Below, piece after piece: positions 8,364 to 64,000 of a stretch of DNA of 64,000 nucleotides. Below the pieces are notes generated by a model. The model saw nothing but the letters and a program-made list of their open reading frames with translations. It was not told the origin of the DNA and made no database searches. Source of the stretch: an uncultured Actinomycetota bacterium (GTDB taxonomy: Bacteria > Actinomycetota > UBA4738 > HRBIN12); the NCBI GenBank assembly GCA_963737525.1, contig CAVTTD010000039.1, positions 5,113 to 69,112 on the forward strand, written 5' to 3'. A program made the position numbers and the translations under genes. Numbering within the stretch: the first letter of the stretch is position 1; every line of letters starts with the position of its first letter.

Positions 8364-9221
8364 TCACAGGCGGATCCCCAGCGAGCGCCGCGCGCGCTCG
8401 ATCCCGACATGGTCGGCGCGTCCTCGCTCCCGAAGTCGCCACTGTTGGTAAGGAGCGATGAAGCGGTACTTCGGCGGGAGGAGCGGACGCAGCGTCCGGA
8501 GCCCCGCGAGCGTCGCGCGGACGAGCGTGCGGCTTCCCGGCCCGGACGGGAAGCCGTACCCCTCTCGCACGGCCTCGGGAAGCGTCCCGATCGCGAGCCG
8601 GGCGACCGCTCTCAGGACCGGTCGCCACTGCGCGTCACGAGGCGGATCGAAGAAGAGCTCCGCCACTCGGCGCGCCGCTTCCGTGACGACGAGTTCTCCC
8701 GATCCAACCGTCTCGGCGACGTAGTCCGCGAGGGAGGGCACCGTCGCCGGGATCCTCTCCCGAGGGAGGCGCACCATCTCGGCCGCGAGCATCTGTTCCT
8801 CGTGGAAGCGCTGGCGGTCGGCGTCTGCGAGCGCCCCCACCGTCATCCGCTCGAAGAGCAGCGCACTGTCGACGAGGCACGTGTGCACCCAGAGCAGCAA
8901 CTCCGGATCGAGCGCGTCGTAGCGCCGCCCGGTCACGGGATCCACCCCGTTGATGCGCTCGTGCACCCCGTTGATGCGTTCGGCCGCGGCATGCGCCTCG
9001 GTCTTCGTCCCGAACGTGAGGGCGTATTGCAGCACGAGCGTTCGTTGAAGCCGTTTCCACGGGTTGCGCTCGTACATGCCGGTCTGGTTCGCGCCCGCGA
9101 CCACCAACGGATGGGCGGCCTGCATGAGCATCGCTCTCGCGCCTCCGAACAGCACCGTGACCTCTCGGTGCACCCGCCAGGAAACGCTCTCCGGTCCGAA
9201 GTACCCTTCGTCGCTCCGCAC
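8364..9221 (-). CDS. Oxygenase MpaB family / DUF2236 protein
   Basis: GYFGPESVSWRVHRE...GGARAMLMQAAHPLVVAG, RLQRT, INGVHERING, YDALDPELLLWVH. Confidence 0.9.
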   Translation of the reverse strand: MRSDEGYFGPESVSWRVHREVTVLFGGARAMLMQAAHPLVVAGANQTGMYERNPWKRLQRTLVLQYALTFGTKTEAHAAAERINGVHERINGVDPVTGRRYDALDPELLLWVHTCLVDSALLFERMTVGALADADRQRFHEEQMLAAEMVRLPRERIPATVPSLADYVAETVGSGELVVTEAARRVAELFFDPPRDAQWRPVLRAVARLAIGTLPEAVREGYGFPSGPGSRTLVRATLAGLRTLRPLLPPKYRFIAPYQQWRLRERGRADHVGIERARRSLGIRL

Positions 9222-9314
9222 ACGACAAGGGTATCGCCGCATCGACGCTGGACTCCCTTCGGGGGCCGTGGAACGATGCTGTCGGTTCAGCCGCCCGAGT
9301 CGGAGACTTCCCCA

Positions 9315-9985
9315 CGTGATGTTGGTCCTCATCGTGATCGGCTTGGCCGTCGGCGTTGGCTTCATCGCCGGTGGCAGCCTGCGACCGTTCGAGCGACTCA
9401 ACGTGCACTGGTGGGGTGTCGCCCTCGCCGGACTCGTTCTCCAAGGCGTCTCGCTCACGGGAGATATCGGACGATCAGCGGCCTTGGCCGTCCTCGTGGG
9501 CTCCTACGGACTCCTGCTCGCGTTCGCATGGGTGAACCGTCGGCTCCCGGCCTCGTGGCTCGTGATGGCCGGACTGGTCCTGAACATCCTCGTCATCGGG
9601 GTGAACGGTGGGATGCCGGTGAGCGCCAGCGCCCTCGACACGGCAGGTGCCGGGGCCGAGGAACTTCTCGGCGCGGGGACCGCGAAGCACCACCTCATGG
9701 GCCCCGCCGATTCCCTGACCCTCCTCGGCGATGTGATCGGGATCCCGCCGCCGGTCGGCGCCGTGATCTCGATCGGCGACGTGCTCCTCTACGCGGGCGT
9801 CGCGGATACTCGTCGTGATGATCATGCTCGGACGGTCGGGCGAGAATCGCCGGCCGCCGGCTCGGATCTTCCAGGGGTATCGGGGGAAGCATCTTCCGCC
9901 GGACCGTCACTTCTCCCGTCTCGCGGCTCGAGTGGTGTCGGTCCCGGGCGATCCCTCCCACCACCCGCCGGATCGATCGGAGTAG
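9315..9985 (+). CDS. DUF5317 family membrane protein, frameshift near 9805
   Basis: GGSLRPFERL, LNILVIGVNGGMPV, KHHL, LLGDVIGIP, VISIGDVLLYAG match my recollection of DUF5317. The second frame continues ILVVMIMLGR...YRGKHLPP to a TAG at 9983-9985. Confidence 0.8.
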
Positions 9986-11445
9986 GCCCGGGTCCTCCGC
10001 CGTCTCCGATCGACTCTGGCGGTGGCTCCGATTGGAGAAGGGACTTCGGGAACCTGACCGTGATCGTCGCGCCCTCACCGGGTGCGCTCTCGACCTCGAA
10101 GCGACCGCCACCGACCTGAGCGCGCTCACGCATCATCGCCATGCCGAAGTGACCTTCAGGGCCGGGGGCTTCCGTGTCGAAGCCAACCCCGTTGTCCTTC
10201 AAGATCAGCTCGATGTCGTCGTCTTCCTCGCGAACCGTGATCCACACATCTCTCGGCTGTGCGTGCTTCAGGGCGTTCATCACACCCTCGCGGGCGATGT
10301 GATACACGAGCAGCGCGATCGGAGCCGGGAGCTCGATGTCCTCCACGTCGCGATGGAAGCGGATCGAGGAATCGCGACCGACCTCCTCGGTGAAGGACTC
10401 GAGCGCTTCGGCAAGCCCCTTCGCTCCGAGCGGGGATCGGTGCAGGTCTCGGATGAGCGCGCGGATCCGGTCTGACGTGTCTTGCTTCGACTGACGGATC
10501 TTGTCGAGTTGCGCAGCGACGTCCTCCGTCTGACCCTTTTCGAGCAGCTTTCGGGCTACATCAACCTGGATGGAGAGCCGGAAGAGGACCTGGGCGAGGT
10601 CATCATGGAGATACCCGGCGATCTGGAGTCGTTCGTCGGCTCGTTCCTCGGCCATCGCGTTCGAAAGCGATCGAAGGACCTGCTCGCGATCCTGGAGCTC
10701 TTCGTGGGCCACTTCGAGCGCCTGCGATCGGAAGAACATCTGACGTGCAAATAGCAGGGGTGCAAGGATGGCAGGCAGCGCCCCGTATCCAACATCTTTG
10801 TATAGGAATCGCAAGACTCAAACCAACGAGGCCGAGCCCGAGGTAGCTCACGAGGAATTCGCTCAGGCGCCCGATCCGCAGCTCCCGCATCACCTGGCGG
10901 ATAGGCACCCCCGTTCGAAGACTCACGAAGATGGTTACGAGCGCGCTGTTCACGCCGTAGTCGACCAACGAGGCGGCGGCGGCCGCGATCAAGAGGATGA
11001 CTTGAGAATCGCCGGGCAGTGTCTATGCCGAACGGCGTCAATCGCATGGAAGAGGGCACTCGCTGCGAGTACCGACAAGAGCGACCTGACATCGATTGAA
11101 CAGGGCCCGGAGGCAGCGTTACTTCTCGTCGGAATTCCCTTGGATCCGACGCACCGACGAGAGCCACGGCGGCGGCGGCGACCGGCTCGTAAAGAAATGC
11201 CACGACCATCAGAAGAGGGAAGCCAACACTGATGGTCAGTCCCCGCCAAGCGGGAACAGGGAGCAGCTCCACCAGTCCGATGAGAGCGGCCCAGAAGACA
11301 AGCTCGCCCCAGTAGTCGTGGAATGCCGCAGGGTCACGGGCGACGAGGAGCGCCCCCCACGCAAGGTGGGAATGATCACGAGGAGCTCGAAGGCGACTAC
11401 CTTTCGCTGATCAACCTTGGCCGGATTCGCCCTCATGAACGTCAA
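9822..11445 (-). CDS. Membrane-sensor histidine kinase 1 (HisKA_3 + HATPase_c), about 4 frameshifts in the sensor domain
   Basis: H-box ERLQIAGYLHDDLAQ, N-box REGVMNALKHA, DNGVGF, GHFGMAMMRERA, SAPGEGAT. The multi-TM N-terminus is split over ORFs 11236..11445, 10556..11272, 10989..11249 and 10603..10992. Confidence 0.88.
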
Positions 11446-11498
11446 TCTTGTCGGTCAGAGCTCGAAGCGCAAGCAGCCCAAAAGCCGGTGCAAGGACC

Positions 11499-11533
11499 CC
11501 TACAGCATGTGTCGTACATGGCTCCTACAGCAT
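11499..11533. repeat. 10-bp direct repeat CCTACAGCAT x2 (11499-11508, 11524-11533) in the divergent intergenic region
   Basis: Exact repeat read from the sequence, 25-nt period. Confidence 0.7.
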
Positions 11534-11597
11534 CCTTCGTAGCTGCATCGGCGTCCTTGCCTATCCCCCGTTTGCCATCGATATTCACTTCCGGAGT

Positions 11598-11611
11598 CCC
11601 CCAAATGGGGG
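11598..11611. promoter_or_regulatory. Palindrome CCCCCA-AA-TGGGGG, putative regulator binding site
   Basis: Perfect 6-bp inverted repeat about 60 nt upstream of the small peptide gene. Function is inferred only. Confidence 0.35.
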
Positions 11612-11672
11612 GTTGGAATAGGTCAGAAGCGGGACTGCCTTGTTGGGCCCGTGACATGAGAGGGGGATCGGC

Positions 11673-11756
11673 ATGAAGGTCGTGCGACGGATTGCAATCG
11701 CGCTCGGCTCTCTGCTGGCTGTCGCTCTGGCTGGCGGCGCCCACTGGCGCGGCTAG
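11673..11756 (+). CDS. 27-aa small peptide precursor MKVVRRIAIALGSLLAVALAGGAHWRG
   Basis: Below the ORF-track cutoff. Purine-rich RBS GAGAGGGGG 6 nt before ATG, basic n-region, 14-aa hydrophobic core, polar tail, and a strong hairpin 27 nt after the stop. Confidence 0.8.
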   Translation: MKVVRRIAIALGSLLAVALAGGAHWRG

Positions 11757-11782
11757 ACAGACCGAACATCAGAGACTGAACC

Positions 11783-11809
11783 AAGGGGACCCTGAAGAAG
11801 GGTCCCCTT
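11783..11809. terminator. Bidirectional terminator-like hairpin between the peptide gene and kinase 2
   Basis: AAGGGGACCCT-GAAGA-AGGGTCCCCTT, a perfect 11-bp stem between convergent stops at 11756 and 11824. Confidence 0.8.
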
Positions 11810-11823
11810 CCATTTGGCGGAGT

Positions 11824-13232
11824 TCACGAATCCCTTGGGATGCTCGCGGCAACGGTAGTGCCCGACCCCAGTCTCGAGTCGACGAACATCGTCCCTCCGG
11901 CCGCTTCGAGCCTTTCCTTCATCATCTGCAGCCCGAAGTGTCTGTTGCCATCCACCCTGAACCAGTCGAACCCAGATCCATCATCAGTGACGCTGACGCG
12001 AACCATGGTTTCGTCTGCCCAGAGTCGGACAGCAATTCGTGAAGCTTGAGCGTGCTTCGAGGCGTTGTGGAGAGCCTCGCGGATGACCTGATAGGCGAGC
12101 AGCTGAGCAAGAGGGGAACTCTCAAACTCTTCTTCCTCGATGATCCACCGGGGGCGCCCCAGCGGCCGCCAGCTGATCGACCAGCATGCGAACAGTTGGG
12201 ACCAGCCCTGCAGCTCCAAGCGGAGATCGACGAAGATCGCCCAAGAGGTCCCGAATCGCCCGCTGCGCAGCGTCGGTCGCGAGGAGAAGCTCAGGGAGAT
12301 CATCGTCAAGCTCCAGCAGCCGTCCAGCCGCGAGGTCTTGCTTGAGAACCTGCCCCATGAGATGAACCTTGAATAGAGACGGAAGAACTTCATCATGTAG
12401 CTCACCGGCCAGGGCAAGGCGTTCGTCCTTCCGTTCGCGCGCCATCTCTCCAGCAGCACCACGTAGCGCCGACATCCTTTTGGCGGATGCGCTCGGTGGC
12501 GTACAGGACCTGCTGGGTCTGACGGAACATCTCCCGAGCGAGCACAAGCGGCGCGAGGAACAACAGCAGCGCCCAGATCCCACCCACCGCAACCGCAGCA
12601 GCAAGTGGCAGGGCAAGGAGGCCAAGAAGCAGGTAGCCAGCCAGGTAATGCGAGAGGCGATGCACCGAACATCCTCTTCAAGACGCCCCGGGCGTCGATC
12701 GGTCCTCGAACGAGACGGCGAAAGCCACAAGGATGAAATTGCTTCCGGCGTCAGCAAGAGAGCAGCTGCGCCAGGAAGAAGGACCCGGGCCAGTCGAGTA
12801 ATGGCTCCATCCATCACGTGGAAGAGCGCGGACCCCGCCATGACGCTTGCCGCCACTTGGCTCCGATTGAATATCGACTTCGCCAACGAAACGCTGCCCT
12901 TCAGTTCTCGTGGATCGAAGGAGCCAATGAAGGCGATAAGTGCCGCTTCGGTCGGAAGAAAGATCATTCCAGCCGCCAAGGTCACAGGAAAGGACATGCT
13001 GACGCTCACGGAACCCCACACGCGAACTGGAACAAGATCTACAGCCGCCACGGTGGCTGCCCACAATCCCAGTTGCAGGAGCTCGGCATGATTACCTGCC
13101 AGGCGAGAAGCCCCGGGGGCGGCAACTGATCGCTGTCAGGAGGCTGACAGTCCAGAGGAACGCCTTGGCCAATGGTGGCTCGTGAGTGCCGGCATCGAAG
13201 TTCCGCCTCTTGCGACCGACCGTGACCGACAT
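11824..13232 (-). CDS. Membrane-sensor histidine kinase 2 (HisKA_3 + HATPase_c), paralogue of kinase 1, several frameshifts
   Basis: RBS GGAGGAGGGG before ATG at 13232. Sensor SFDPRELKGSVSLAKSIFNRSQ, H-box ERLALAGELHDEVLP, REALHNASKHA, DDGSGF, HFGLQMMKERL, SRLGSGTT. Confidence 0.88.
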
Positions 13233-13380
13233 CTTCCCCTCCTCCCGAGGGCTCCATGCGGTCTCCCGGCCACCGCGGCCTCTGAACGCTCGATGTTCTA
13301 GCCCATCCGCTGTACGCCGCACAAGACTGACAAATCGCCCGTGAGCCAGAGTCGGCCCGCCGTGCGAGACTCGATGCGAT

Positions 13381-13821
13381 ATGACAGCTGAACCCGACGA
13401 AGACCCGAAGAGCCGCCGATCCCCCTTCCGGGACGAGGTCTGGGGGGACGAACCCCAAGAAACCGACGCCTCTGAGCTCGTCGAAGAGATGGAGACGACC
13501 CAACCGGAGCTCGCGCGCCGTTGGCATGACCACCCGACCGTCGTCCCGTTCAAGATCCTGGCTCGCTTCATCGGCAGGAATGGGAAGCGTGTCGCCATCA
13601 CCATCGCCGGCTTCGCCGTCCTCCTCGCCGGCCTCGCGATGCTCGTCCTCCCGGGTCCGGGCATCGTCGTGATCATCGCCGGCCTCGCGATCCTCGCCAC
13701 GGAGTACGTCTGGGCCCAGCGACTGCTGAAGCTCGCCAAGGAGAAGGCGAATCAGGCGAAGGACGCGATCCTTCGGAAGAAGACCGAGGAGAAGAGCGGA
13801 GGGGAAGGTACGTCCTCGTGA
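13381..13821 (+). CDS. PGPGW-domain membrane protein (TIGR02611-like)
   Basis: GLAMLVLPGPGIVVIIAGLAILATEYVWAQRLL. Confidence 0.85.
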   Translation: MTAEPDEDPKSRRSPFRDEVWGDEPQETDASELVEEMETTQPELARRWHDHPTVVPFKILARFIGRNGKRVAITIAGFAVLLAGLAMLVLPGPGIVVIIAGLAILATEYVWAQRLLKLAKEKANQAKDAILRKKTEEKSGGEGTSS

Positions 13822-14736: not shown

Positions 14737-15379
14737 TCAGTCGCTGCAGCCAGACGACTCCGTCTGGAGCCATCCTCCGGATCCGTCGGACGTATAGACC
14801 AGCGATTCTTTCGCCTGGCCCTCGGACACGTTGATGAACGTTCGTTGGCCCGAGATGTCATACCCCGCTTCGACGACCGAGCCTTCGAGACGGAAGTGCT
14901 TCTCCGAGTCGACGAGTGGATCCTCGACTCCCCGGGCACCCGCGACGTAGTCCGCGTTCCCCATGTACATCCGTCCACCGGGGCACTCGAGCGCCGGCGA
15001 GATCGAACCCTCGATGGCCAGGACCTCGAAGCCGCCCCAGTCCCCGTTCGCCATCGCGTTGTCTTCGGTCTCCTTCATGCATCGGATCCGAGAACGGCCG
15101 GGGTTGATCGGGAAGATCAGCGTCGTCTCGCCGGGGGAAGCACCATCGCCGCCGGTCTCGGTCGTCACGGAGAGTCGCTCGGTCGCGGAGTTGTGGATCA
15201 AGACGTGCACACCATCTCGCTGCGCCTGGACGGTCGGCGTCAGCACCTCGGTGGTCTCGCCATCGCAGCGGATCTCGAGCTCGTCCGGCGCGTTCCCGGT
15301 CGTCGTCGTCGTCTCCGTCGGATCCGCGCACGCACCCACAAGGAGATACGAGGAGCGCGATCGCAGCCGCACGTCTCAC
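14737..15379 (-). CDS. Putative lipoprotein, frameshift in the signal peptide
   Basis: MRRAAAIALLV joined to LLVGAC (lipobox), then a Thr-rich linker and a Cys-containing domain. Confidence 0.6.
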
Positions 15380-15452
15380 GCGAGCAGTATGCCCCCGGTC
15401 ATCGGTGCCGTGACAGGCAAGCGTAGGCAGGAGGCCCGGTAGGCTCCCGATC

Positions 15453-55671: not shown

Positions 55672-56549
55672 TCACGGGATGGGGCGGCTCGATAGCGTAC
55701 CGGATGCCCGAGTCGCTATCCGAGCGCCCAGCCACCCACCCAAAGCAACGAGACAACGGCTCCGAGTGAGTGGACCTATCGGCGCTGACCGAACCGCCTG
55801 TAGATATGCCGCCGCCTGGATGACGCGATTTAGCGCTGCCACTCGGGAGTCTCGGGTCGACGTAGAGCGCCCGTCGGACAATGGAGGAGTGATGGGTGTC
55901 CCGGGATTGGTGGTCACGTTCGGAAGAAGTCGTACTCCGGGAGCCCAACGAACCTCCCACGCAGGGATAGCTCAGCGAGAAGAACATGATCACACGAGGC
56001 GTTGCTCCTGAACAGACCGGTATCGGCGAGAACGCTCGACCGGATGACGCCGAACATCGGGGTCGCCCAGAACGGCCACCGCATCAATGAGGAGAGTCGG
56101 ACGGCGGGGTCTAGCGAGGTCATGTCGGGCCCGGGGCCATGCCTCTTCCTGACCTGGCCGTTTTCGTCGATCATCGCCACCCGTGGATAGACGAGTACAA
56201 CGCCTGGGTCGCGATCCAGCACCTCGACACACCTACCAAGCAGGTTGGGACCGCAGATGTCATCGTAAGCTGCCCACTTGAAGAACTCTCCGGAGGATAG
56301 ACGGAAAGCCTGATTGAAGTTACCTACGATGCCCACGTTGAGCCGATTCCGGACGTACCTGATGCGATCGTCTCTTGCGGCGTACCGGAGGCAGATGTCT
56401 TCGGTTCCGTCGGTAGAGGCGTTATCCGAGATGATCAGCTCGAAGTCCTCAAACCGCTGATTCAGGAGCGACTCCAGCCCATCCGCTAGATAGCGCTCGC
56501 TGTTGTAGACCGTCAGCCCGATGCTCACCCGAGGAACGCGGTTACCCAT
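55672..56549 (-). CDS. GT2 family glycosyltransferase; 3' part frameshifted, end approximate
   Basis: VSIGLTVYN, IISDNASTDGT, NFNQAF, FFKWAAYDD. Confidence 0.88.
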
Positions 56550-56573
56550 GGCCGCCGATCGGAGGCTGCCGTC

Positions 56574-57872
56574 TTAGACGGGAGCGTGGTCGGTGGCTTC
56601 GAAAACCCCCTGCATCCTAGGATCCTCATCAACTGCCCTCACGTACTGCCCCCACGAGACAAGCAACTCAAGACCACCGGCTACTGCGAATCCCCATGCA
56701 ACCCCACGGGCGCCCGCCAGTAACGCGCCCATAACCCCGGCTACGAGGGTGAGCACCGCGACGATACTCCTCGCCCTGAGACTCCGTCGCGCTGCTGCCA
56801 TAGCTCGCAATCCAACCACCGCGCCGTAAGAACCCGCGTAGCCGACCACCGCGATCGTCAGAGGAAGAAGAACACTTCGTGCACCCTGCCAGTTTTCGCC
56901 CAGAAGTTTCATCCCCAAGCTCGCGGGAAGGAACAAGGCGAATGTGCCCCATGCAGCAGCCATCCCAGCCACGCCCAACGAGAGCAGAACCATTGCCCGG
57001 CGGAACATTGCGGGGGATGCGACCAGGAACCGGACGCTCTCCGGGACGGCGACGAGCCCGACGGCACTGAACATAACGTATAGAGGGCCAAGGAGGATCT
57101 GGCCTGCGCGTAGAGCTGCGGCCTGGCTGAGGCCCGCTATGCCCCCAACGAGGAAGACGGTCAGTTGCGAAGTGCCACTCGAAACAGCGAACTCGCCGAG
57201 GAATCGAGGAGCAAGAGCACGTTGCTCATGGAGCCACGTCAGAGTCGTGGACGGCGAGGGCATCACTTTGGCCTGGAGGATCCCGGTGACGGCCGCGACA
57301 GATCCGGCGCCACCCCATACCAGGATCATCGATCCGACCGTGGCACGCCCCGTGTAGACCAGCAGCGCAACAGACGGGAACAGGATGATGGCCCAGACGA
57401 GGTCATTGCCGAATGCCCGGCCCTCCCTCCGCCCGGCGAAGAAGGCAAATCGCCAGGCATCCTGAAGGAGTAAGCCCGGCATCGTGACTCCGAGCATCAG
57501 GAACGCCGACCCAAGCGAACCGTCCATGAGCCACCCGGCCACCAAGCATGCGACCCCGACGGTGATTCCCATAGCGACAGCGAGTCCGCTCGCGGAGCGG
57601 ACCCCGCGCCTCCAGTCGGCATCGTTCACCGCGCTGTAGGTGACCGAAAGAGGCTCCGACGCAAGTGCCCGTGATGCCCCCAGTGCCAAGGTGTACGTCA
57701 CGAATGCGATACTGAAAGCGCCGAAGTCACTGGGCGGTAGCGTTGAGCTACCAACAGACCAACGACGAAGTTCGTCGAACTGGACAGCACCTGATCCGCA
57801 AGTCCCCAGCTCAGACGTGGTGGTCCGGCCTATCCCCTCCTCGCGTTCGCGCCCGCTCGAGGCGCGTCTCAT
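56574..57872 (-). CDS. Polysaccharide export/flippase-like (Wzx/MATE-like) membrane protein; 5' frameshifts, start approximate
   Basis: About 12 TMs; WGLADQVLSSSTNF in an adjacent frame, DFGAFSIAF, EPLSV, LLQDAWRFAFF. Confidence 0.75.
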   Translation of the reverse strand: MRRASSGREREEGIGRTTTSELGTCGSGAVQFDELRRWSVGSSTLPPSDFGAFSIAFVTYTLALGASRALASEPLSVTYSAVNDADWRRGVRSASGLAVAMGITVGVACLVAGWLMDGSLGSAFLMLGVTMPGLLLQDAWRFAFFAGRREGRAFGNDLVWAIILFPSVALLVYTGRATVGSMILVWGGAGSVAAVTGILQAKVMPSPSTTLTWLHEQRALAPRFLGEFAVSSGTSQLTVFLVGGIAGLSQAAALRAGQILLGPLYVMFSAVGLVAVPESVRFLVASPAMFRRAMVLLSLGVAGMAAAWGTFALFLPASLGMKLLGENWQGARSVLLPLTIAVVGYAGSYGAVVGLRAMAAARRSLRARSIVAVLTLVAGVMGALLAGARGVAWGFAVAGGLELLVSWGQYVRAVDEDPRMQGVFEATDHAPV

Positions 57873-58062
57873 CGGGGGTCGCCCCAATGGGAGCGACACT
57901 CCAGCGATCGGGTCCTGACGTCCAGTCGATAGGGGCTCCAGCATGGACTCTGCTTTTCCCTATCCTTGGATGCGCGGGCGGGTCGATTTCGCGTCTTCGC
58001 CTTCCTCTATCACGACTGGTCGTCGACCTCTCGACCCGTCCCGGCGCAGGCTCTTCGGGAGA

Positions 58063-59319
58063 TCAGTCGACGACTGTGAGCTCGGGGATGGCGATGACGA
58101 ACCGGCCACCCCAATCCTTGATGAACGACATCTGGTCCATGATCTCGTTCTTGAGGTTCCAAGGCATGATCATCAGGTAGTTCGGGTCGGTCTCCTTGAT
58201 CCGATCCGGATGGAAGACCGGGATATGGGTTCCGGGGAGGAACCGCCCCTGCTTGTGGGGGCTCCGATCCACCACGTAGTCGATGACGTCCGTTCGGATG
58301 CCACAGTAATTGAGCAGTGTGTTGCCTTTGCCGGGAGCGCCATAGCCCACGATCGACTTCCCCTCGCGCTTCGCTCGTATAGCGAACTCCAGAAGTTTGC
58401 GCTTTGTCTCTTTCACCCGTTCGGAGAACGACCGGTAGTAGTCCATGGCTCGAAGCCCCGCGGCTTCCTCTCTCGACCGCAGTTCATGAACCCGGCTGGT
58501 GACCGGGCGGGTGCGGTCCTCCGCGTGACGGGCGTAGATCCTCATCGACCCACCGTGGGTCGCCAGCTCCTCGACGTCGAAGATGGTGAGCCGATGCGCC
58601 TCGAACACTCGCGTTACGGAGACGAGGGAGAAGTAAGAGAAGTGCTCGTGGTAGATGGTGTCAAATTGGTTCTCCTCGACAAGTCGCATGAGGCTCGGGA
58701 ATTCCATCGTGATGACACCGCCTGACTTGAGGGCGATCTGCATTCCCTCCACGAACCCATTCAGATCCGGCACCTGAGCCAGCACGTTGTTCCCTAGCAG
58801 CAGCTCAGCTGTCAGCCCGGTGGCGACAAGCTGCCTCGCCATCTCGACTCCGAAGAACGCAACCTGGGTCGGAATACCGCGGCTGATTGCCTCAGTGGCC
58901 ACGTTGGCTGCAGGCTCGACACCTAACACTGGGATGTCGCGGTCCCGGAAGTACCGGAGCAGGTACCCGTCATTGCTCCCAACCTCGACTACCTGGCTTC
59001 CCTGGTTGAGACCAAGGCGATCGATGATCATCTCCACGTAGGCTTCAGCATGTTGCAACCAACTATCGGAATAGGAGGAGAAATAGGGGTAGTCGCTGAA
59101 GATCTCGCCCGGACTGACGTACTCCTCTAGCTGCACCAGGAAGCATCCCTCGCACACCCAAACGTGAAGAGGGTAGAAGGGTTCCATGCGATCGAGGTCT
59201 TGCGGAAGCAGATATGTTTCGCAGAGCGGCGACATCCCGAGATCGACGAACGTGAACCGGAGGGCATCGCCGCATGACCGGCAACTGGGTTCACGGGCAG
59301 AGTATCCGTGTGACTGCAC
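58063..59319 (-). CDS. NDP-hexose C-methyltransferase
   Basis: CRSC...DLGMSPL...CEGCFLVQL, YPYFSS, VEVGSNDGYLL, FDTIYHEH, HGGSMR, YGAPGKGNTLLNYC. Confidence 0.92.
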   Translation of the reverse strand: MQSHGYSAREPSCRSCGDALRFTFVDLGMSPLCETYLLPQDLDRMEPFYPLHVWVCEGCFLVQLEEYVSPGEIFSDYPYFSSYSDSWLQHAEAYVEMIIDRLGLNQGSQVVEVGSNDGYLLRYFRDRDIPVLGVEPAANVATEAISRGIPTQVAFFGVEMARQLVATGLTAELLLGNNVLAQVPDLNGFVEGMQIALKSGGVITMEFPSLMRLVEENQFDTIYHEHFSYFSLVSVTRVFEAHRLTIFDVEELATHGGSMRIYARHAEDRTRPVTSRVHELRSREEAAGLRAMDYYRSFSERVKETKRKLLEFAIRAKREGKSIVGYGAPGKGNTLLNYCGIRTDVIDYVVDRSPHKQGRFLPGTHIPVFHPDRIKETDPNYLMIMPWNLKNEIMDQMSFIKDWGGRFVIAIPELTVVD

Positions 59320-59345
59320 GCTGGTCCTCGTTCGGATCGCGTCCC

Positions 59346-60395
59346 TCATGTCCGAGCTTCCTGAGCGCCGAGATCTGTGCGCCGCAGATCGGCATCGAGG
59401 TGTCCCATCGACATGAGCTGCTTGATTCGCTGCAGTCGAACGAATCGGGTCTGGAATGTCTCCTGCGTGAGGCCATTCTGACGATACGCGCGAAGTAGCT
59501 GCTCGGCCCCACGACGAACGGTCCACCTGGGGGTGAGCTCTGGGAAACTTGTCGCTAGCTTGGCGAAGTTGACTCGGTAGGAGCGAAGATCCGGTCCTCC
59601 CCCTGCCGCGAGGACGACTCGGCTGTTCGGGACAACCTCTTCGATGAGGTCCGCCACCTCCTTGATGCGGTAGTTCTCGTCGATGCTTCCGACGTTGACC
59701 GCTTGGTTGTGCACCAGCTCCGAAGGAGCTTCGAGGACGGCGAGGAAGGCACGCGCAACGTCCTCAACGTGGACGAGCGGCCTCCATGGTGTCCCATCAC
59801 TCATGACGAGAATCTTGCCCGTGAGATACGCGATCCCCACCAGGTTGTTCACCACCAAGTCGGTGCGGAGCTGGGGGGAAACACCATAGACCGTGGCGTT
59901 CCTTAAGAATGTGGGACTGAAGGAGTCGCTCGCCAATCTCGAGACATCCCGTTCCACCATCATCTTGGACTTCCCGTAAGCGGTCACGGGGTTGAGCGGA
60001 GCGTCCTCGGCAAGGAAAGCGTCACTCCCCGCTGCCCCGTACAGACTGCAAGATGATGAGAACAGGAACCGAGCGACTCCAGCCTCTCGGGCCAATCGAG
60101 CCAGACGGACCGAGGCCTCATGATTTATCGCGTATGTCCACGCGGGGTTCAGGTCGCCCACGGGATCGTCGGAGATCCCCGCGAGGTGGACGACCGCATC
60201 AACCCCTCCGAGATCCCGCGCCGTGACGTCGCGGATGTCGCCTTCTCAGTGAAGGTATCTCCGACGCCGGCTCCCCGAAAGAGCAGCCTTCGAACAGACA
60301 GCTGTCGAGGCCCACACGTCGTGACCCGCTGCCCCGAGCATCGGAGTCATCACGCTACCGATATAGCCGTCGTGACCGGTTACGAGCACTTTCAT
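59346..60395 (-). CDS. NAD-dependent epimerase/dehydratase, frameshifted
   Basis: MKVLVTGHDGYIG, VHLAGISDDP, FSSSCSLYG, YGKSK, LRNATVYG, RPLVHVED. Confidence 0.92.
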
Positions 60396-61428
60396 CAGCG
60401 GACCCCTTCCCCACCGCGCGACTCGTCACCACCCGACGCCTCGGTCCCAGAGGTGGCACCCACGCCCTTCAAGCCACGTCCGATGGCCTTGGCATCGCTC
60501 GCGGTCGGTTCTTCCTGGGAACCCGATACACCTCGCAACCAGCGAGTCGTCCTACTCAGTCCTTCGTCGAGTGCTACTCGAGCTCGCCACTCCAGCAAGG
60601 AGAGCGCCTTGTCAACATCCGCTCGAGGAGATAGCTCGAATACCCGATCAGGAACAGCCCCGAACCGTGGCTCGATGGAAGGGTCGATCAGCGACACCAG
60701 CTTTTCGACCACGGTTCTTACTGACACGAGCACGCCCGTGCCGACGTCGATCGTCTCGCCCTCGATTCCGTCGGCGGCTGCGGCCGCGACGAATGCGTCG
60801 CTGACGTCGTCAACGTATACCCAGTCCACAAGCCTGCCACCACTAGACAACTCCGGCGTCTCGCCGCGATAGAGGGAAAGACCGACATAAGGGATCAGCT
60901 TCGTGTGGTCGCGCTGCTCCCGGCCCGTAAACCATGAACAGGCGGAGGACGACAACCGGAAGGTCGTACAGCGCGTGGAACATCCTTGCATATGCGGTGC
61001 TTGCGGATTTCGCAGCCGCATAAGGTGAGTTGGGAATCGCTGCCAACGGATCGGTAGGCTCCTCCATCGACCCGGCAACTACGAATCGGTGGCATCCGGT
61101 CTCCGCGGCGGCTGCCAGAAGATTGACCGTACTCAGCAGGTTGTTCTTCACCGTTGGAACAACCCAGTCTAGAGCTCGACTCCTCCGACCTGACTGGCGA
61201 GATGGAAAACGAGATCCGGGCTCACTGTCCATGAAATCAGTTTCTCGCGTCCGCCAGGTCTGCCCTCCACCAACGATCGACGCCGGCATGACCAGCTCCG
61301 GTCCTGGAAACGCCGCGGACCTCCACCCCCGCCCCGCGTAATTGCCGACAAAGGTGCGTGCCGATGAATCCAGAGGCGCCGGTGACGATGGCGGATCGGC
61401 CGGCGAGCCCAGACCGTTCATCGCTCAT
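60395..61428 (-). CDS. Second NAD-dependent epimerase/dehydratase, several frameshifts
   Basis: IVTGASGFIG, VFHLAS, SPYAAAK, LRLFMVYGP, DWVYVDD. Confidence 0.85.
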
Positions 61429-62763
61429 TCTAAGGTCGCCTCTGATCGAGGTTCTTTTTTGCCGCGCTTCCGGGTCCCTACGGCTCCTCCTGTCGGGCAC
61501 GGCTCAAGTAACCCGTGGTGGAGAAGCCGGTCCGCTGCCGCCCTCAGGTGCAGGAACGGGAGGCCCGATACCTCGGCGATATCTAAGAGGCTGTGTTGCG
61601 TATCGGAGAGGTTGAGGACCCAGAGCAAGGCGAGCTGCTCCAGTTCAAGATCCTTCCCCCCCACCGACGGATAGAGCCCTCGTCTCCCCAGCTGAGGCTC
61701 GCCCTTCGGGTTCGTGTTGCGTACGTCGCGTTCCCTTCGAGCAAGTCGATGACGGAGAGCAAGACGGAGAGGGACTCCCCCAAGGCCTTGGGGGTCACAA
61801 GCTCGAGGTCGTCGGCGGAGGTGTGGTATTCGGATATCCCATGCGGCGTGCGGGTGAGGCCCCCACGGGAAAGTCGAATCCCGGCGAGCAGTACTGCCGC
61901 TCATCGTAGCCGTACGGCGAGAAGTCGACGAGCTCGTGGTCAACCCCGCAGGCGGAGCACGCGCCACGGCCCGATCGATCTCGGCATCGCCCCGTCGGCT
62001 CCGTTTGTAGGTGAGCCCGGTCTCCGACACATGCGAGCACCAGGCCGTGCTGATCCGCGACGCGATCCTCGTTCCGGGCCAGCCAGGTGATCGAGCCGAT
62101 CGTGCCCGGGATGAACAGGAACCGATAGGAGATCGGCGGCGACCCGCCAGATCGCATGAACGGCGAGCCACGTCGCCCAGCGAGGAGGTTGTCGTTGGCC
62201 AGGGATGGATGGCACACGTGGCAGGAGATCAGGACCTCGTCCTCCGTCTCGCCTGGCAGATAGCACTCCCCGTAGGTGAGGTGCCCGTCCCAGGGAGGAA
62301 TCGATGCAGACCTCGTACTCGCCGTCCGGCAGCGCGTCGAGCTGCCGTCTGACACAGGCAGAACCCCCAGGTCTCCTCGTAGTACGAGGTCCGGTATGGG
62401 ATCCAGTCCGGGTGATCCGGAACGAGTGAGATGTGGCCGGAGCTGGTCGAGCGTCATGCGTCCGCGGAACGGGACGCTGTAGCTCACCAGGTGGAGATTC
62501 GACGCGGAAGTCGATCACCCGATCGCCGCCCGCGTTCTTGACGTAGGCGTCCCGGATGTTCCATTCTCTCGGAACGGTCCAGTCGAGAACGGGGGTGCCC
62601 GTCGGCACTTCGTGGAGGTCGAGCGGGATGCTTGGCCGATACGTCGTGAGCGTCTCGCGCGTCCCGTCGCCGGTGATGCTCCGGCAGAACGGGAACAAGT
62701 CGCGCCATGCACTGAGGGCACGCCGATGGCCCGCCCGCTCGCACCGAACTCCGAGATGCTCAC
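61425..62763 (-). CDS. DUF4910 (aminopeptidase-like with C-terminal wHTH) protein, several frameshifts
   Basis: [93 protein letters not shown]. Confidence 0.88.
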
Positions 62764-63309
62764 TCGGGTCTGGCGCCCGCCGTCACGGCCGCGAAGTCGG
62801 GATACTCCCGGTCCCGCGCCGATATCGCCGGTCGTCGTCCGGCCAGGCGATTCCGAAGACGGGGTCGTTCCACCGGACACCCCGCGCGTGGTCGGCCGAG
62901 TGGTACTCGGACATCTGGTAGGACACTTCGGTGTCGTCTGGAGGGTGAGGAAGCCGTGCGCGAATCCCACCGGCACGTAGAGCATCCTCCGGTTCTCGGC
63001 GGTCAGAGCGTCACCCCGAATGCCGTTTGAAGGTCGGCGACTCCGGCCGGAGGTCGATGATCACGTCATGGATGCGCCCCGGCGTGCAGCGGATCAGCTT
63101 GGTCTCCTGGTGGGGCGCTGCCTGGTAGTGCATGCCCCGAAGGGTGCCCCGACCATTGAAGGAGATGCTCCATTGAGCGAACTCCGTCAACAGCGCGTTG
63201 GCTGCGAACTCCCTGCGACATCAAACGCGGGCGAAGAAGCCTCGTTCGTCGTCGAGGTGCTCAGGTTCGATCAGGAACGCCCCGGAAGATCGGTCTCGTA
63301 GAAGATCAT
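62760..63309 (-). CDS. dTDP/CDP-4-dehydro-sugar 3,5-epimerase (RmlC/RfbC family), frameshifts
   Basis: MIFYETDLPGAFLIEP, DERGFFAR, GTLRGMHYQ, ETKLIRC, MLYVPVGFAHGFLTL. Confidence 0.9.
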
Positions 63310-63335
63310 CGCGTCCGCCGCCACTCCTGTCGGAG

Positions 63336-63995
63336 TCATGCCAGCACCAGCTTCCGGCAGTAGAAGGCCTCAGCGAACCCTGACGGCGACCTGCTCTCCA
63401 TCCCCCGCAGTCGCAGCATGGCCATGAACACGTCCTCGGAGAACCAGGGCTTGTCCCGCTGACTCTCGAAGATGCCGAGAACGGATTCGACCTTCAGGCG
63501 AGAGGTCTCCTCGTCTAGATGAACGAAGACGTTCGGACGCCCTAGGTCGCCATCGTACTTCGGGATCTCGTACTCGAGGATCAGATGGTCGCGGAACGTA
63601 TTCCAGGTGAGCTCGCCTACCAAGCGGTGATCCTGATGGAGGTCGTCCCGACTGTGCGTCAGCACGAGATCTGGCGAAACCTCCCTCCCCAGAAGATCGA
63701 ACCGATCCTTGAGCTCCGCCCCCACGTAAGGGAAATAGCTCATCCTGAAGTCCTCTATGACTACCCGAGCGTTCTTCGCCCGCCTGAGGAAGGTTTCGGC
63801 GCCCCGGTTGGCCTCGGCTGACCGCCGTCCGGGTGCGCTCAAGACAACCCAATCGACCGAGACCCGGCCACTCCCCATCTGGAGCAGCTTCAGCATGGTG
63901 CCCCCACAGCCGATCTCGATGTCGTCCGCATGGGCCCCCAGACACAGGATGCGCGACAGGGGACTGGTGAACGCCTCCAACCCGAGGACGAGCAT
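63336..63995 (-). CDS. PIG-L/LmbE family deacetylase
   Basis: LGAHADDIEIGCGG, DLVLTH..DDLHQDH, YEIPKYDGD, AEAF. Confidence 0.92.
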   Translation of the reverse strand: MLVLGLEAFTSPLSRILCLGAHADDIEIGCGGTMLKLLQMGSGRVSVDWVVLSAPGRRSAEANRGAETFLRRAKNARVVIEDFRMSYFPYVGAELKDRFDLLGREVSPDLVLTHSRDDLHQDHRLVGELTWNTFRDHLILEYEIPKYDGDLGRPNVFVHLDEETSRLKVESVLGIFESQRDKPWFSEDVFMAMLRLRGMESRSPSGFAEAFYCRKLVLA

Positions 63996-64000
63996 TCAGC

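What the first reader, a model, noticed from the sequence alone, without database searches (positions are those of the whole stretch)
9315..13232. Candidate undescribed peptide-signalling (quorum-sensing-like) system: small precursor, DUF5317 peptidase and membrane-sensor kinases
Seen in sequence: the order is DUF5317(+), kinase 1(-), divergent 27-aa peptide gene(+), shared terminator, kinase 2(-). Both kinases have a multi-TM sensor sharing DPRE(F/L)xxxV(T/S)L and SALFH, plus HisKA_3/HATPase domains of the NarL-partner class. Established: Gram-positive peptide quorum systems (agr, com) combine a small precursor, a membrane peptidase and a polytopic kinase. Inference: DUF5317 cleaves the precursor in the membrane and releases a short C-terminal peptide that the (possibly MASE9-like) sensor detects. 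I know of no characterised system with these parts.
Basis: partly seen in the sequence, partly recalled or inferred. Interest (0 to 1): 0.9.

Follow-up and report, generated by a model that had tools for sequence, protein, structure and literature searches.

The report
Micropeptide, DUF5317 and MASE9 kinase module
A real, strongly conserved 27-codon gene for a tiny membrane protein sits between two membrane sensor kinases and next to an uncharacterised membrane protein; this trio recurs across Actinomycetota and gives candidate partners for a sensor domain (MASE9) whose signal is unknown, but in this assembly the three large genes are broken by single-base indels and nothing shows that the peptide is a secreted pheromone.

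Summary
The 27-aa ORF (11673..11756) is a genuine gene. It is present in all 13 same-genus relatives where the spacer could be aligned and in six of the seven other-family loci examined. Pairwise dN is 0.07 against dS 0.80. It has a strong Shine-Dalgarno sequence and a terminator hairpin kept by compensatory changes.

In the window itself DUF5317, kinase 1 and kinase 2 are split by about 15 frame changes. These trace to 14 private 1-bp indels, while relatives have intact genes.

The kinase sensors are MASE9 or MASE9-like. Frame-corrected K1 scores 36 bits against a cut-off of 24.3.

Relatives of the peptide lie beside DUF5317 and MASE9 proteins that carry other outputs (GGDEF-EAL, HisKA). In 301 Actinomycetota genomes, 45 of 66 peptide hits lie within about 3 kb of DUF5317.

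A confident DUF5317 model (pLDDT 84) matches no solved fold, so "peptidase" is unsupported.

Best reading: the peptide is a membrane-resident partner or in-membrane ligand of the MASE9 sensors, with DUF5317 as a third component. A cleaved-pheromone mechanism remains possible but untested. No published description was found. Earlier notes of this scan report the same trio with c-di-GMP outputs.

The parts
9319..9985 (+). DUF5317 membrane protein gene. It is read in one frame to 9805; an extra A at 9806 shifts the frame, and the native C-terminus (last TM helix plus basic tail) continues in the frame of ORF 9815..9985. Its 3' end overlaps the 3' end of kinase 1.
   Evidence: PF17248 at 91.6 bits, E 6.5e-26. 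The indel at 9806 appears against L029. Relatives read ...VLLYAGVAVLVVMIMLGRSGENRRPP.... Gene calls in relatives give 201 aa, overlapping K1 by about 100 nt.
9822..11436 (-). Kinase 1: MASE9 sensor, HisKA_3, HATPase_c. The catalytic half (9822..10814) is an intact ORF. The sensor half is split over frames 2>1>2>0>1>2>0.
   Evidence: Three-frame read. Pfam on the ORF and on the frame-corrected reading: MASE9 36.0 bits, HisKA_3 40.5, HATPase_c 51.5. Intact orthologues have 507-538 aa.
11500..11542 (.). Two tandem TAC...GTA inverted repeats, CTACAGCATGTGTCGTAC (11500-11517) and CTACAGCATCCTTCGTAG (11525-11542), in the divergent K1/peptide control region. They are candidate binding sites for a dimeric regulator.
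   Evidence: Read from the sequence. The second site is conserved over the order, with both half-sites changing together (TACAGC..GCTGTA, TACGTC..GACGTA). It has no RNA fold (-4.4 kcal/mol, z +0.36). The function is inferred.
11557..11585 (+). Promoter-like pair for the peptide gene: TTGCCT, 17 nt, GATATT.
   Evidence: Read from the sequence. Both hexamers align across the genus and order (CTTGYC ... GATAGT/GATATT). The generic scan did not score it. Inferred.
11596..11672 (+). Conserved leader: a C5-N4-G5/6 hairpin (11598-11612) and the Shine-Dalgarno sequence GGGGGA (11662-11667). The C5 run can alternatively pair with the Shine-Dalgarno sequence.
   Evidence: The window is 96.6% identical to L029 over 11500-11800, against about 85% in the flanking genes. 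CCCCC-N4-GGGGG is kept across families. The fold has z -0.8, not significant. No Rfam match.
11673..11756 (+). Small gene for the 27-aa single-pass membrane protein MKVVRRIAIALGSLLAVALAGGAHWRG: a basic N-terminus, an A/L/G-rich helix, and a C-terminal GA-x-W-[KR] motif.
   Evidence: 14 different coding sequences in the genus encode only 6 peptides. Variable sites by codon position are 9/3/16, and mean dN is 0.07 against dS 0.80. Orthologues occur in other families of the order and in other lineages. There is a single genome-wide profile hit. No Pfam or NCBIfam family matches.
11783..11809 (.). An 11-bp GC-rich hairpin between the convergent peptide gene and kinase 2, probably a two-way terminator.
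   Evidence: -25.7 kcal/mol, z -2.97 on the + strand. The stem is kept with different sequences in relatives. The U-tract is weak, and the consensus scan did not call it.
11824..13232 (-). Kinase 2: a paralogous MASE9-like sensor, HisKA_3, HATPase_c, split over frames 1>2>0>2>1>0>1>2>0 with one in-frame stop.
   Evidence: Three-frame read. The frame-corrected reading gives HisKA_3 28.1 bits, HATPase_c 50.7 and MASE9 16.8, below the cut-off. Intact orthologues have 468-469 aa.

Best explanation
This locus is a copy of a conserved, unpublished membrane signalling module made of three families.

- A ~27-aa single-pass membrane protein, predicted N-terminus in and C-terminal GA-x-W-[KR] out.
- The five-helix membrane protein DUF5317, which has a small, acidic, highly conserved beta mini-domain predicted to face outward.
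- MASE9-type polytopic sensor domains, here fused to two paralogous HisKA_3 histidine kinases.

Most likely the peptide acts inside the membrane as an intact helix. It would pack through its conserved small-residue face (GS...AGGA) against the MASE9 domain as a partner or in-membrane ligand that sets kinase activity. DUF5317 would bind, present or alter the peptide's exposed C-terminus. The peptide gene has its own promoter with TAC..GTA repeats, which may close a feedback loop through an unlinked NarL-type regulator.

Shown: the genes exist, the small gene is under purifying selection, the genomic linkage holds, and the domain identities stand. Inferred: every physical interaction, the topology and the feedback loop.

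In this particular assembly the three large genes carry 14 private 1-bp indels. I rate these slightly more likely to be a local consensus error than real decay.
For: Selection on the peptide: dN 0.07 against dS 0.80, and 6 peptides from 14 coding sequences.

Linkage across the order: DUF5317 next to K1 next to K2 in relatives from all 14 genera sampled in the order, with the peptide between K1 and K2.

The same peptide family lies directly upstream of DUF5317 followed by MASE9-like GGDEF-EAL or HisKA proteins in other Actinomycetota, and in one Chloroflexi MAG.

Phylum sample: 45 of 66 peptide hits (E <= 1e-3) lie within 3.1 kb of DUF5317 and 4 more within 6.1 kb. Three checked outliers lie between two MASE9-like kinases with no DUF5317 nearby.

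Residue-level conservation of the helix: G22 and A23 are invariant and A20 is kept in at least 90% of sequences.

Within the genus, the K1 sensor half, the peptide and K2 vary together as two types. DUF5317, the K1 catalytic half and the flanks do not.

The authors who defined MASE9 proposed ligand binding inside the membrane (10.1101/2021.11.05.467447).

The DUF5317 model has five helices and a beta mini-domain that carries the invariant N, K-H-H, D, D and S-x-G-D residues.

Indels: 11 insertions and 3 deletions, all 1 bp. Private substitutions are not raised (22 and 10, against 14-92 in relatives), the flanks are clean, and the rest of the window has long ORFs.
Against: No response regulator lies in the cluster.

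The type A and B peptides differ by only five conservative changes, so co-variation with the sensors may simply reflect one recombination block.

Tandem arrays of up to four diverged peptide genes in relatives are more typical of precursors than of stoichiometric subunits.

The signal-peptide-like shape, with ALA-GGA before HWRG, is compatible with cleavage.

The indels are confined to the module, which is unusual for random sequencing error and could mean real loss of the system in this organism.
Confidence: 0.5

Rival explanations
1. Processed pheromone. The 27-aa protein is a precursor. DUF5317 or another protease cuts it in or at the membrane, and a short C-terminal or hydrophobic fragment is released and sensed by the MASE9 kinases of the same or neighbouring cells. 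This would resemble agr, or the enterococcal pheromones cut out of signal peptides.
For: The peptide has a signal-peptide-like layout with small residues (ALAGGA) before the conserved HW[RK] end. It is linked to a conserved membrane protein whose invariant polar residues (K-H-H, D, D, S-x-G-D) could form an active site. Relatives carry multi-copy tandem peptide genes. A dimorphic cassette spans the sensor half, the peptide and the second kinase, reminiscent of agr specificity groups.
Against: DUF5317 has no detectable similarity to any solved protease fold or protease family. There is no exporter or maturation enzyme. The C-terminal motif is conserved across families and phyla instead of diversifying. 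The transmembrane part is conserved residue by residue. A 4-7 residue product would be unusually short.
Confidence: 0.2
2. The peptide is a subunit or substrate of DUF5317 only, for example a small subunit of a transporter or membrane enzyme. The MASE9 sensors would monitor the activity or product of that complex rather than the peptide itself.
For: In some loci one or two peptide genes flank DUF5317 with no MASE9 gene within about 3 kb (L049, L058). DUF5317 is near-universal in the order (37 of 41 genomes). The peptide's basic/aromatic end and the acidic DUF5317 mini-domain are predicted on the same side of the membrane (inference).
Against: K1-peptide-K2 cassettes exist without DUF5317 nearby (L076, L078, L079). 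The peptide co-varies with the sensors and not with DUF5317.
Confidence: 0.15
3. In this organism the locus is a decaying relic. The module has been lost by pseudogenisation, and only the peptide gene still looks intact by chance or through a separate role.
For: About 15 frame changes are confined to DUF5317, K1 and K2, while the flanking genes are intact. GC falls to 0.62 across 10-14 kb. Single frameshifts also occur in this cassette in a few other MAGs.
Against: All private indels are 1 bp and insertion-biased (11 to 3), unlike natural decay. Private substitutions are not raised, and the K1 codon-position pattern is normal. There are no larger deletions.
Confidence: 0.4

Closest known systems
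MgrB-PhoQ (also SafA-PhoQ, MzrA-EnvZ): small bitopic membrane proteins that regulate sensor kinases (PMC2789325, PMC8404706)
   Same: A very small single-pass membrane protein is genetically tied to a membrane sensor kinase. It has its own promoter, which could be under the pathway's control. The expected action is by helix and short-tail contacts in or at the membrane.
   Different: There is no sequence relation. At 27 aa it has almost no extramembrane part, whereas MgrB has 47 aa and a functional periplasmic tail with cysteines. The partner sensor is an 8-TM MASE9 domain, not a PhoQ-type periplasmic domain. A third conserved protein (DUF5317) is involved. The same peptide family also pairs with c-di-GMP enzymes. 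No interaction or feedback has been shown.
MASE9-containing signalling proteins (T. maritima TM1467 MASE9-HD-GYP; S. venezuelae HdgA), defined in bioRxiv 10.1101/2021.11.05.467447
   Same: The sensor domain family is the same (K1 passes the Pfam cut-off). That paper also proposes sensing inside the membrane.
   Different: The output here is a HisKA_3 histidine kinase, in two paralogous copies. The text passages I read from that paper list HD-GYP, HD-GYP-GAF-GGDEF and GGDEF-EAL outputs. The passages I read mention neither the small peptide nor DUF5317.
Staphylococcal agr (AgrD precursor, AgrB membrane peptidase, AgrC polytopic kinase) and its specificity groups
   Same: A small hydrophobic gene product, a polytopic membrane protein and a polytopic sensor kinase are encoded together. 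A variable block covers the peptide and the sensor half of a kinase.
   Different: None of the agr families is present. The kinase is HisKA_3 class, not HPK10, and there is no LytTR regulator. DUF5317 has no protease-like fold. The peptide's functional motif is conserved rather than diversified. No thiolactone-forming Cys is present.
LiaFSR-type three-component systems (HisKA_3 intramembrane-sensing kinase plus accessory membrane protein; PMC3543457)
   Same: A HisKA_3 kinase without a large extracellular domain, with input expected to come through accessory membrane proteins.
   Different: LiaF is a larger, unrelated protein. LiaS has 2 TM helices, not MASE9. LiaR is encoded in the operon, whereas here no regulator is linked.

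Membership tests
MASE9 (PF20972) | Profile score at or above Pfam's gathering cut-off (24.3 bits) over the N-terminal membrane domain | tested here: met
   Frame-corrected K1 of the window scores 36.0 bits, and the intact orthologue scores 42.5 bits. The uncorrected ORF pieces score nothing.
MASE9 (PF20972) | The same cut-off, applied to kinase 2 | tested here: not met
   16.8 bits (window, frame-corrected) and 15.7 bits (orthologue), both below 24.3. K2 is a paralogue of the K1 sensor (35-42% identity by tblastn), so I call it MASE9-like only.
MASE9 (PF20972) | Eight predicted TM segments, two of them short and forming an intramembrane hairpin (definition in 10.1101/2021.11.05.467447) | not tested
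   No topology predictor was run, and the second structure job was not used.
HisKA_3 / NarL-partner two-component kinases | HisKA_3 dimerisation/phosphoacceptor domain and HATPase_c domain | tested here: met
   K1: HisKA_3 41.3 bits, HATPase_c 52.3. K2: 30.3 and 52.1.
HisKA_3 / NarL-partner two-component kinases | A cognate NarL/LuxR-type response regulator encoded beside the kinase | tested here: not met
   The neighbours are HAD, MpaB, PGPGW and DUF72, with no REC or GerE gene. The assembly holds 14 GerE-type genes elsewhere, and none could be assigned.
DUF5317 (PF17248) | Profile score above the cut-off (25 bits) | tested here: met
   91.6 bits and 92.9 bits in the genome search.
Intramembrane or membrane peptidase (AgrB, GxGD aspartyl, rhomboid, S2P, CAAX, signal peptidase), as a label for DUF5317 | Sequence-family or fold similarity to a known peptidase | tested here: not met
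   Only PF17248 matches, with no NCBIfam hit. The AlphaFold model (pLDDT 84.3) searched against 350,542 PDB chains gives best E 3.3, TM below 0.25 and no protease. Catalysis by a new fold is not excluded.
agr-type quorum sensing | AgrD-like precursor with Cys for a thiolactone, AgrB, an HPK10 AgrC and a LytTR regulator | tested here: not met
   The peptide has no Cys, and no AgrB, AgrC or LytTR families appear in the Pfam scans.
MgrB-like small membrane regulators of kinases (functional class, not a sequence family) | A small single-pass membrane protein | tested here: met
   27 aa, made of 6 N-terminal residues (3 basic), 17 uncharged residues and HWRG. The call is by sequence only.
MgrB-like small membrane regulators of kinases (functional class, not a sequence family) | Physical binding to, and regulation of, the partner kinase | not testable with these tools
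   Only single-chain structure prediction is offered, and no experimental data exist.
Secreted peptide pheromone precursor | Evidence of cleavage or export: a dedicated exporter or protease, or a mature fragment | tested here: inconclusive
   No exporter or known protease is in the cluster. Small residues precede the C-terminal motif, but no cleavage predictor or peptidomics data were available.

The most novel reading that the evidence does not exclude
The micropeptide is the self-made, cognate ligand of MASE9 sensor domains, which would be the first natural input identified for this widespread domain. Recognition would be allele-specific: the type A and type B cassettes (K1 sensor half, peptide, K2) would be matched sets, as in agr specificity groups. 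DUF5317 would be a new-fold membrane enzyme that processes or presents the peptide's C-terminus. The module would then be a new class of peptide signalling that feeds either two-component kinases (as here) or c-di-GMP enzymes.
Probability: 0.2. Interest if true: 0.9.

Novelty: new variant of a known kind. Interest (0 to 1): 0.68.

Why it matters
MASE9 is a widespread membrane sensor domain with no known signal. DUF5317 is a conserved membrane family that no paper in the searched library mentions.

A strongly selected micropeptide that travels with both families, across lineages and across three different output types, gives concrete and testable candidates for the missing input. This locus adds the two-component (HisKA_3) version of the module. 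It also adds a natural two-allele cassette that could be used for swap experiments.

The peptide gene is shorter than common gene-caller limits and is mostly unannotated: 8 of 10 exact sequences are absent from a 15-billion-protein collection, and the others are labelled 'hypothetical'. The module is therefore invisible in standard annotation.

Tried and rejected
- An Rfam scan of 9000-13600 at E <= 1 found nothing, so there is no known riboswitch or sRNA.
- The generic promoter/terminator scan missed both the promoter-like pair and the hairpin.
- Pfam and NCBIfam give no family for the peptide.
- I considered that the S-x-G-D and D motifs of DUF5317 mark a GxGD-type aspartyl protease. I rejected this because the two Asp are only 16 residues apart, in a beta mini-domain, and because of the Foldseek null.
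A three-sequence alignment worked.
- A search of the assembly for further TAC..GTA sites found only two paralogous sites upstream of unrelated hydrolase-like genes, with no link to a regulator.
- The leader RNA fold is not significant (z -0.8), so I make no structured-RNA claim.
- A relative-rate test for relaxed selection on the window's kinases showed no excess of private substitutions.
Full report
**What is in the window**

The contig belongs to an incomplete MAG: 1.88 Mb in 44 contigs, 59% complete. It comes from an uncultured Actinomycetota lineage; relatives are titled 'Actinomycetota bacterium' MAGs. GC is about 69% and falls to 62% over 10-14 kb.

- DUF5317 on the + strand from 9319 (PF17248, 91.6 bits).
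- A convergent kinase 1 on the - strand, 9822..11436.
- A divergent 27-codon ORF on the + strand, 11673..11756.
- An 11-bp GC hairpin, 11783-11809 (-25.7 kcal/mol, z -2.97).
- Kinase 2 on the - strand, 11824..13232.

Both kinases have HisKA_3 and HATPase_c domains. Both share the motifs DPRE(F/L)..V(T/S)L and SALFH in their membrane halves.

**The large genes are broken here**

A three-frame reading shows that only the catalytic half of K1 (9822..10814) is an intact ORF.
- The K1 sensor half runs through frames 2>1>2>0>1>2>0.
- K2 runs through 1>2>0>2>1>0>1>2>0 and contains an in-frame stop.
- DUF5317 has an extra A at 9806 that breaks its last helix and tail, which relatives read as ...YAGVAVLVVMIMLGRSGENRRPP....

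Relatives have intact genes. K1 is 507-538 aa, K2 is 468-469 aa and DUF5317 is about 201-216 aa.

I aligned the window with five type-matched relatives. The window has 14 private indels in DUF5317..K2, all of 1 bp (11 insertions, 3 deletions). It has none in the right flank and one in the left flank. The relatives have 1-6 private indels each, several of them 3 bp or longer.

The window's private substitutions are not raised: 22 in K1 and 10 in K2, against 14-92 in relatives. In K1 they have the usual third-position share. The rest of the window carries long intact ORFs of up to 1113 codons.

One-base, insertion-biased indels without extra substitutions look more like a local consensus error than like natural decay. 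A mixed-strain consensus over a hypervariable cassette could produce this. Their confinement to the module, however, keeps real pseudogenisation alive. I put it at roughly 55:45 in favour of artefact.

**The small ORF is a real gene**

The spacer 11500-11800 is 96.6% identical to the closest relative, against about 85% in the flanking coding sequence.

The spacer could be aligned in 13 same-genus loci, and all 13 have the ORF, with a strong Shine-Dalgarno sequence 6-11 nt upstream and a downstream hairpin whose stem is kept by different sequences. In a set of 14 genus sequences, all 14 coding sequences are different yet encode only 6 peptides. Variable sites by codon position are 9/3/16, and mean pairwise dN is 0.07 against dS 0.80.

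Six of the seven loci examined from other families of the order carry an orthologue at the same place, for example MHLIKRLAAGAISLFALAIAGGARWKA and MQHIRRIALAASSLFALVLAGGAHWKL.

A profile of the family finds exactly one hit in the six-frame translation of the whole assembly (E 6.9e-15, next best 0.45).

No Pfam or NCBIfam model matches. Of ten exact peptide sequences, eight are absent from a 15-billion-protein collection, and the other two clusters carry only 'hypothetical protein'.

**The sensors are MASE9-type**

The intact K1 orthologue scores 42.5 bits for MASE9 and the frame-corrected window K1 scores 36.0, against a cut-off of 24.3. K2 scores 15.7-16.8, below the cut-off, so it is a MASE9-like paralogue.

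MASE9 was defined as an 8-TM sensor domain of HD-GYP and GGDEF/EAL proteins. Its ligand was proposed to bind inside the membrane, and it has no known signal (10.1101/2021.11.05.467447).

**The trio is conserved well beyond this locus**

DUF5317 is present in 37 of 41 related genomes. A K1 orthologue lies directly beside it, followed by K2, in relatives from all 14 genera sampled in the order.

In 28 further loci fetched through DUF5317, two layouts appear.
- The layout seen here: DUF5317, K1, peptide, K2.
- An operon-like layout in other lineages: one or two tandem peptide genes, then DUF5317, then a MASE9-like protein with a different output. The outputs are GGDEF-EAL (L056, L064) and classical HisKA-HATPase (L050). 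One Chloroflexi MAG has peptide, MASE9-like, DUF5317.

In an even sample of 301 Actinomycetota genomes, 121 have DUF5317. Of the 66 peptide hits at E <= 1e-3:
- 45 lie within 3.1 kb of a DUF5317 hit.
- 4 more lie within 6.1 kb.
- 2 sit next to K2 at a contig end.
- 3 checked outliers lie between two MASE9-like kinases with no DUF5317 nearby.

By chance less than one hit would be expected. The peptide's tightest link is therefore to the MASE9-type sensors, and DUF5317 is a frequent third member.

**DUF5317 is not a recognisable peptidase**

An AlphaFold model built on 30 sequences is confident (pLDDT 84.3, pTM 0.77). It shows five helices and a four-stranded beta mini-domain between helices 4 and 5. 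That mini-domain holds the invariant N97-G-G-M-P-V, K124-H-H, D132, D139, P146 and S152-x-G-D155.

Foldseek against the PDB gives nothing (best E 3.3, TM below 0.25).

By the positive-inside rule (my inference), the acidic mini-domain faces outward. That is the side where the peptide's conserved H-W-[KR] end should emerge. An enzymatic or binding role toward that end is possible, but 'peptidase' has no support.

**Pointers to mechanism**

The peptide helix is conserved residue by residue: G22 and A23 are invariant, A20 is kept in at least 90% of sequences, and there is a GS...AGGA small-residue face. This is typical of specific helix packing rather than of a mere export signal.

Within the genus there are two cassette types. 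Identity to a type A reference is shown below.

| Region | Type B loci | Type A loci |
|---|---|---|
| K1 sensor half | 48-74% | 62-90% |
| K2 | 28-42% | 64-91% |
| DUF5317 | 74-85% in both types | |
| K1 catalytic half | 91-95% in both types | |
| PGPGW neighbour | 82-92% in both types | |

The peptide follows the cassette (type A ...G..V...RG, type B ...S..I...KA). This fits co-adaptation of peptide and sensors, though a single recombination block would give the same pattern.

Upstream of the peptide gene lie two tandem TAC..GTA inverted repeats (11500-11517 and 11525-11542). Their half-sites change together across the order. A TTGCCT-17-GATATT promoter-like pair follows. The repeats do not fold as RNA, so they look like sites for a dimeric regulator. 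That regulator could be the unlinked NarL-type partner, which would give MgrB-like feedback (PMC2789325). This is inference.

No response regulator is in the cluster. The assembly has 14 GerE-type genes elsewhere.

**Verdict**

The layout, the domains and the small gene are real, but the large genes are frame-broken in this assembly.

A peptide-linked, unpublished sensor module exists. The peptidase role and the released C-terminal signal are unsupported.

I favour a membrane-resident partner or ligand model (0.5) over a processed pheromone (0.2) or a DUF5317-only subunit (0.15). The relic rival (0.4) is a separate question about the indels, not a fourth mechanism, so the four confidences are not meant to sum to one.

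Earlier notes of this scan, read after I had formed this view, report the same trio with c-di-GMP outputs in other genomes. They are unverified AI notes and are not independent evidence. What this locus adds is the HisKA_3 two-kinase version and the dimorphic cassette.

Noticed in passing
window 10815-13232, compared with loci L024-L036, L044, L046: There is a two-allele cassette within one genus. The K1 sensor half, the peptide gene with its promoter, and the whole of K2 occur as type A or type B (K2 only 28-42% identical between types). DUF5317, the K1 catalytic half and the flanking genes stay at 74-95%. The breakpoint lies inside K1, between the sensor and catalytic halves.
   Followed up: partly
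window 11500-11542: Two tandem TAC..GTA inverted repeats sit 25 bp apart, CTACAGCATGTGTCGTAC and CTACAGCATCCTTCGTAG. The half-sites co-vary across the order. They are a possible operator for a NarL-type regulator; the only similar sites elsewhere in the assembly lie upstream of unrelated hydrolase-like genes (C15:2586, C26:3304).
   Followed up: partly
window 11598-11666: A conserved C5 run can pair either with the adjacent G6 run (a hairpin at the predicted 5' end of the transcript) or with the G5 of the Shine-Dalgarno sequence. This is a possible translational switch, but the fold is not better than shuffles (z -0.8).
   Followed up: partly
G244:C81:1490-2117 and G054:C3:1482524-1483239 (relatives): Up to four tandem, diverged copies of the peptide gene lie directly upstream of DUF5317. 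One genome has eight copies in all.
   Followed up: no
window 14745-15437: This roughly 690-bp segment has a 211-codon ORF (14737..15372, - strand) with a lipobox-like LVGAC near its N-terminus. It has no counterpart between DUF72 and the M50 protease gene in the Logan relatives L044-L047.
   Followed up: no
window 9822-9985 and relatives (L044 6506-6606): The 3' ends of the convergent DUF5317 and K1 genes overlap by about 100-160 nt. The overlapped K1 tail is a Pro/Gly-rich extension after HATPase_c.
   Followed up: no
L026, L028, L034, L035, L036 (other MAGs of the genus): Single frameshifts in K1 or K2 also occur in several other MAGs of the genus. The cassette seems prone either to assembly error or to recurrent inactivation.
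   Followed up: partly
window 56000-64000: A second stretch of lower GC (0.60-0.64) lies at the right end of the window. Its ORFs look intact.
   Followed up: no
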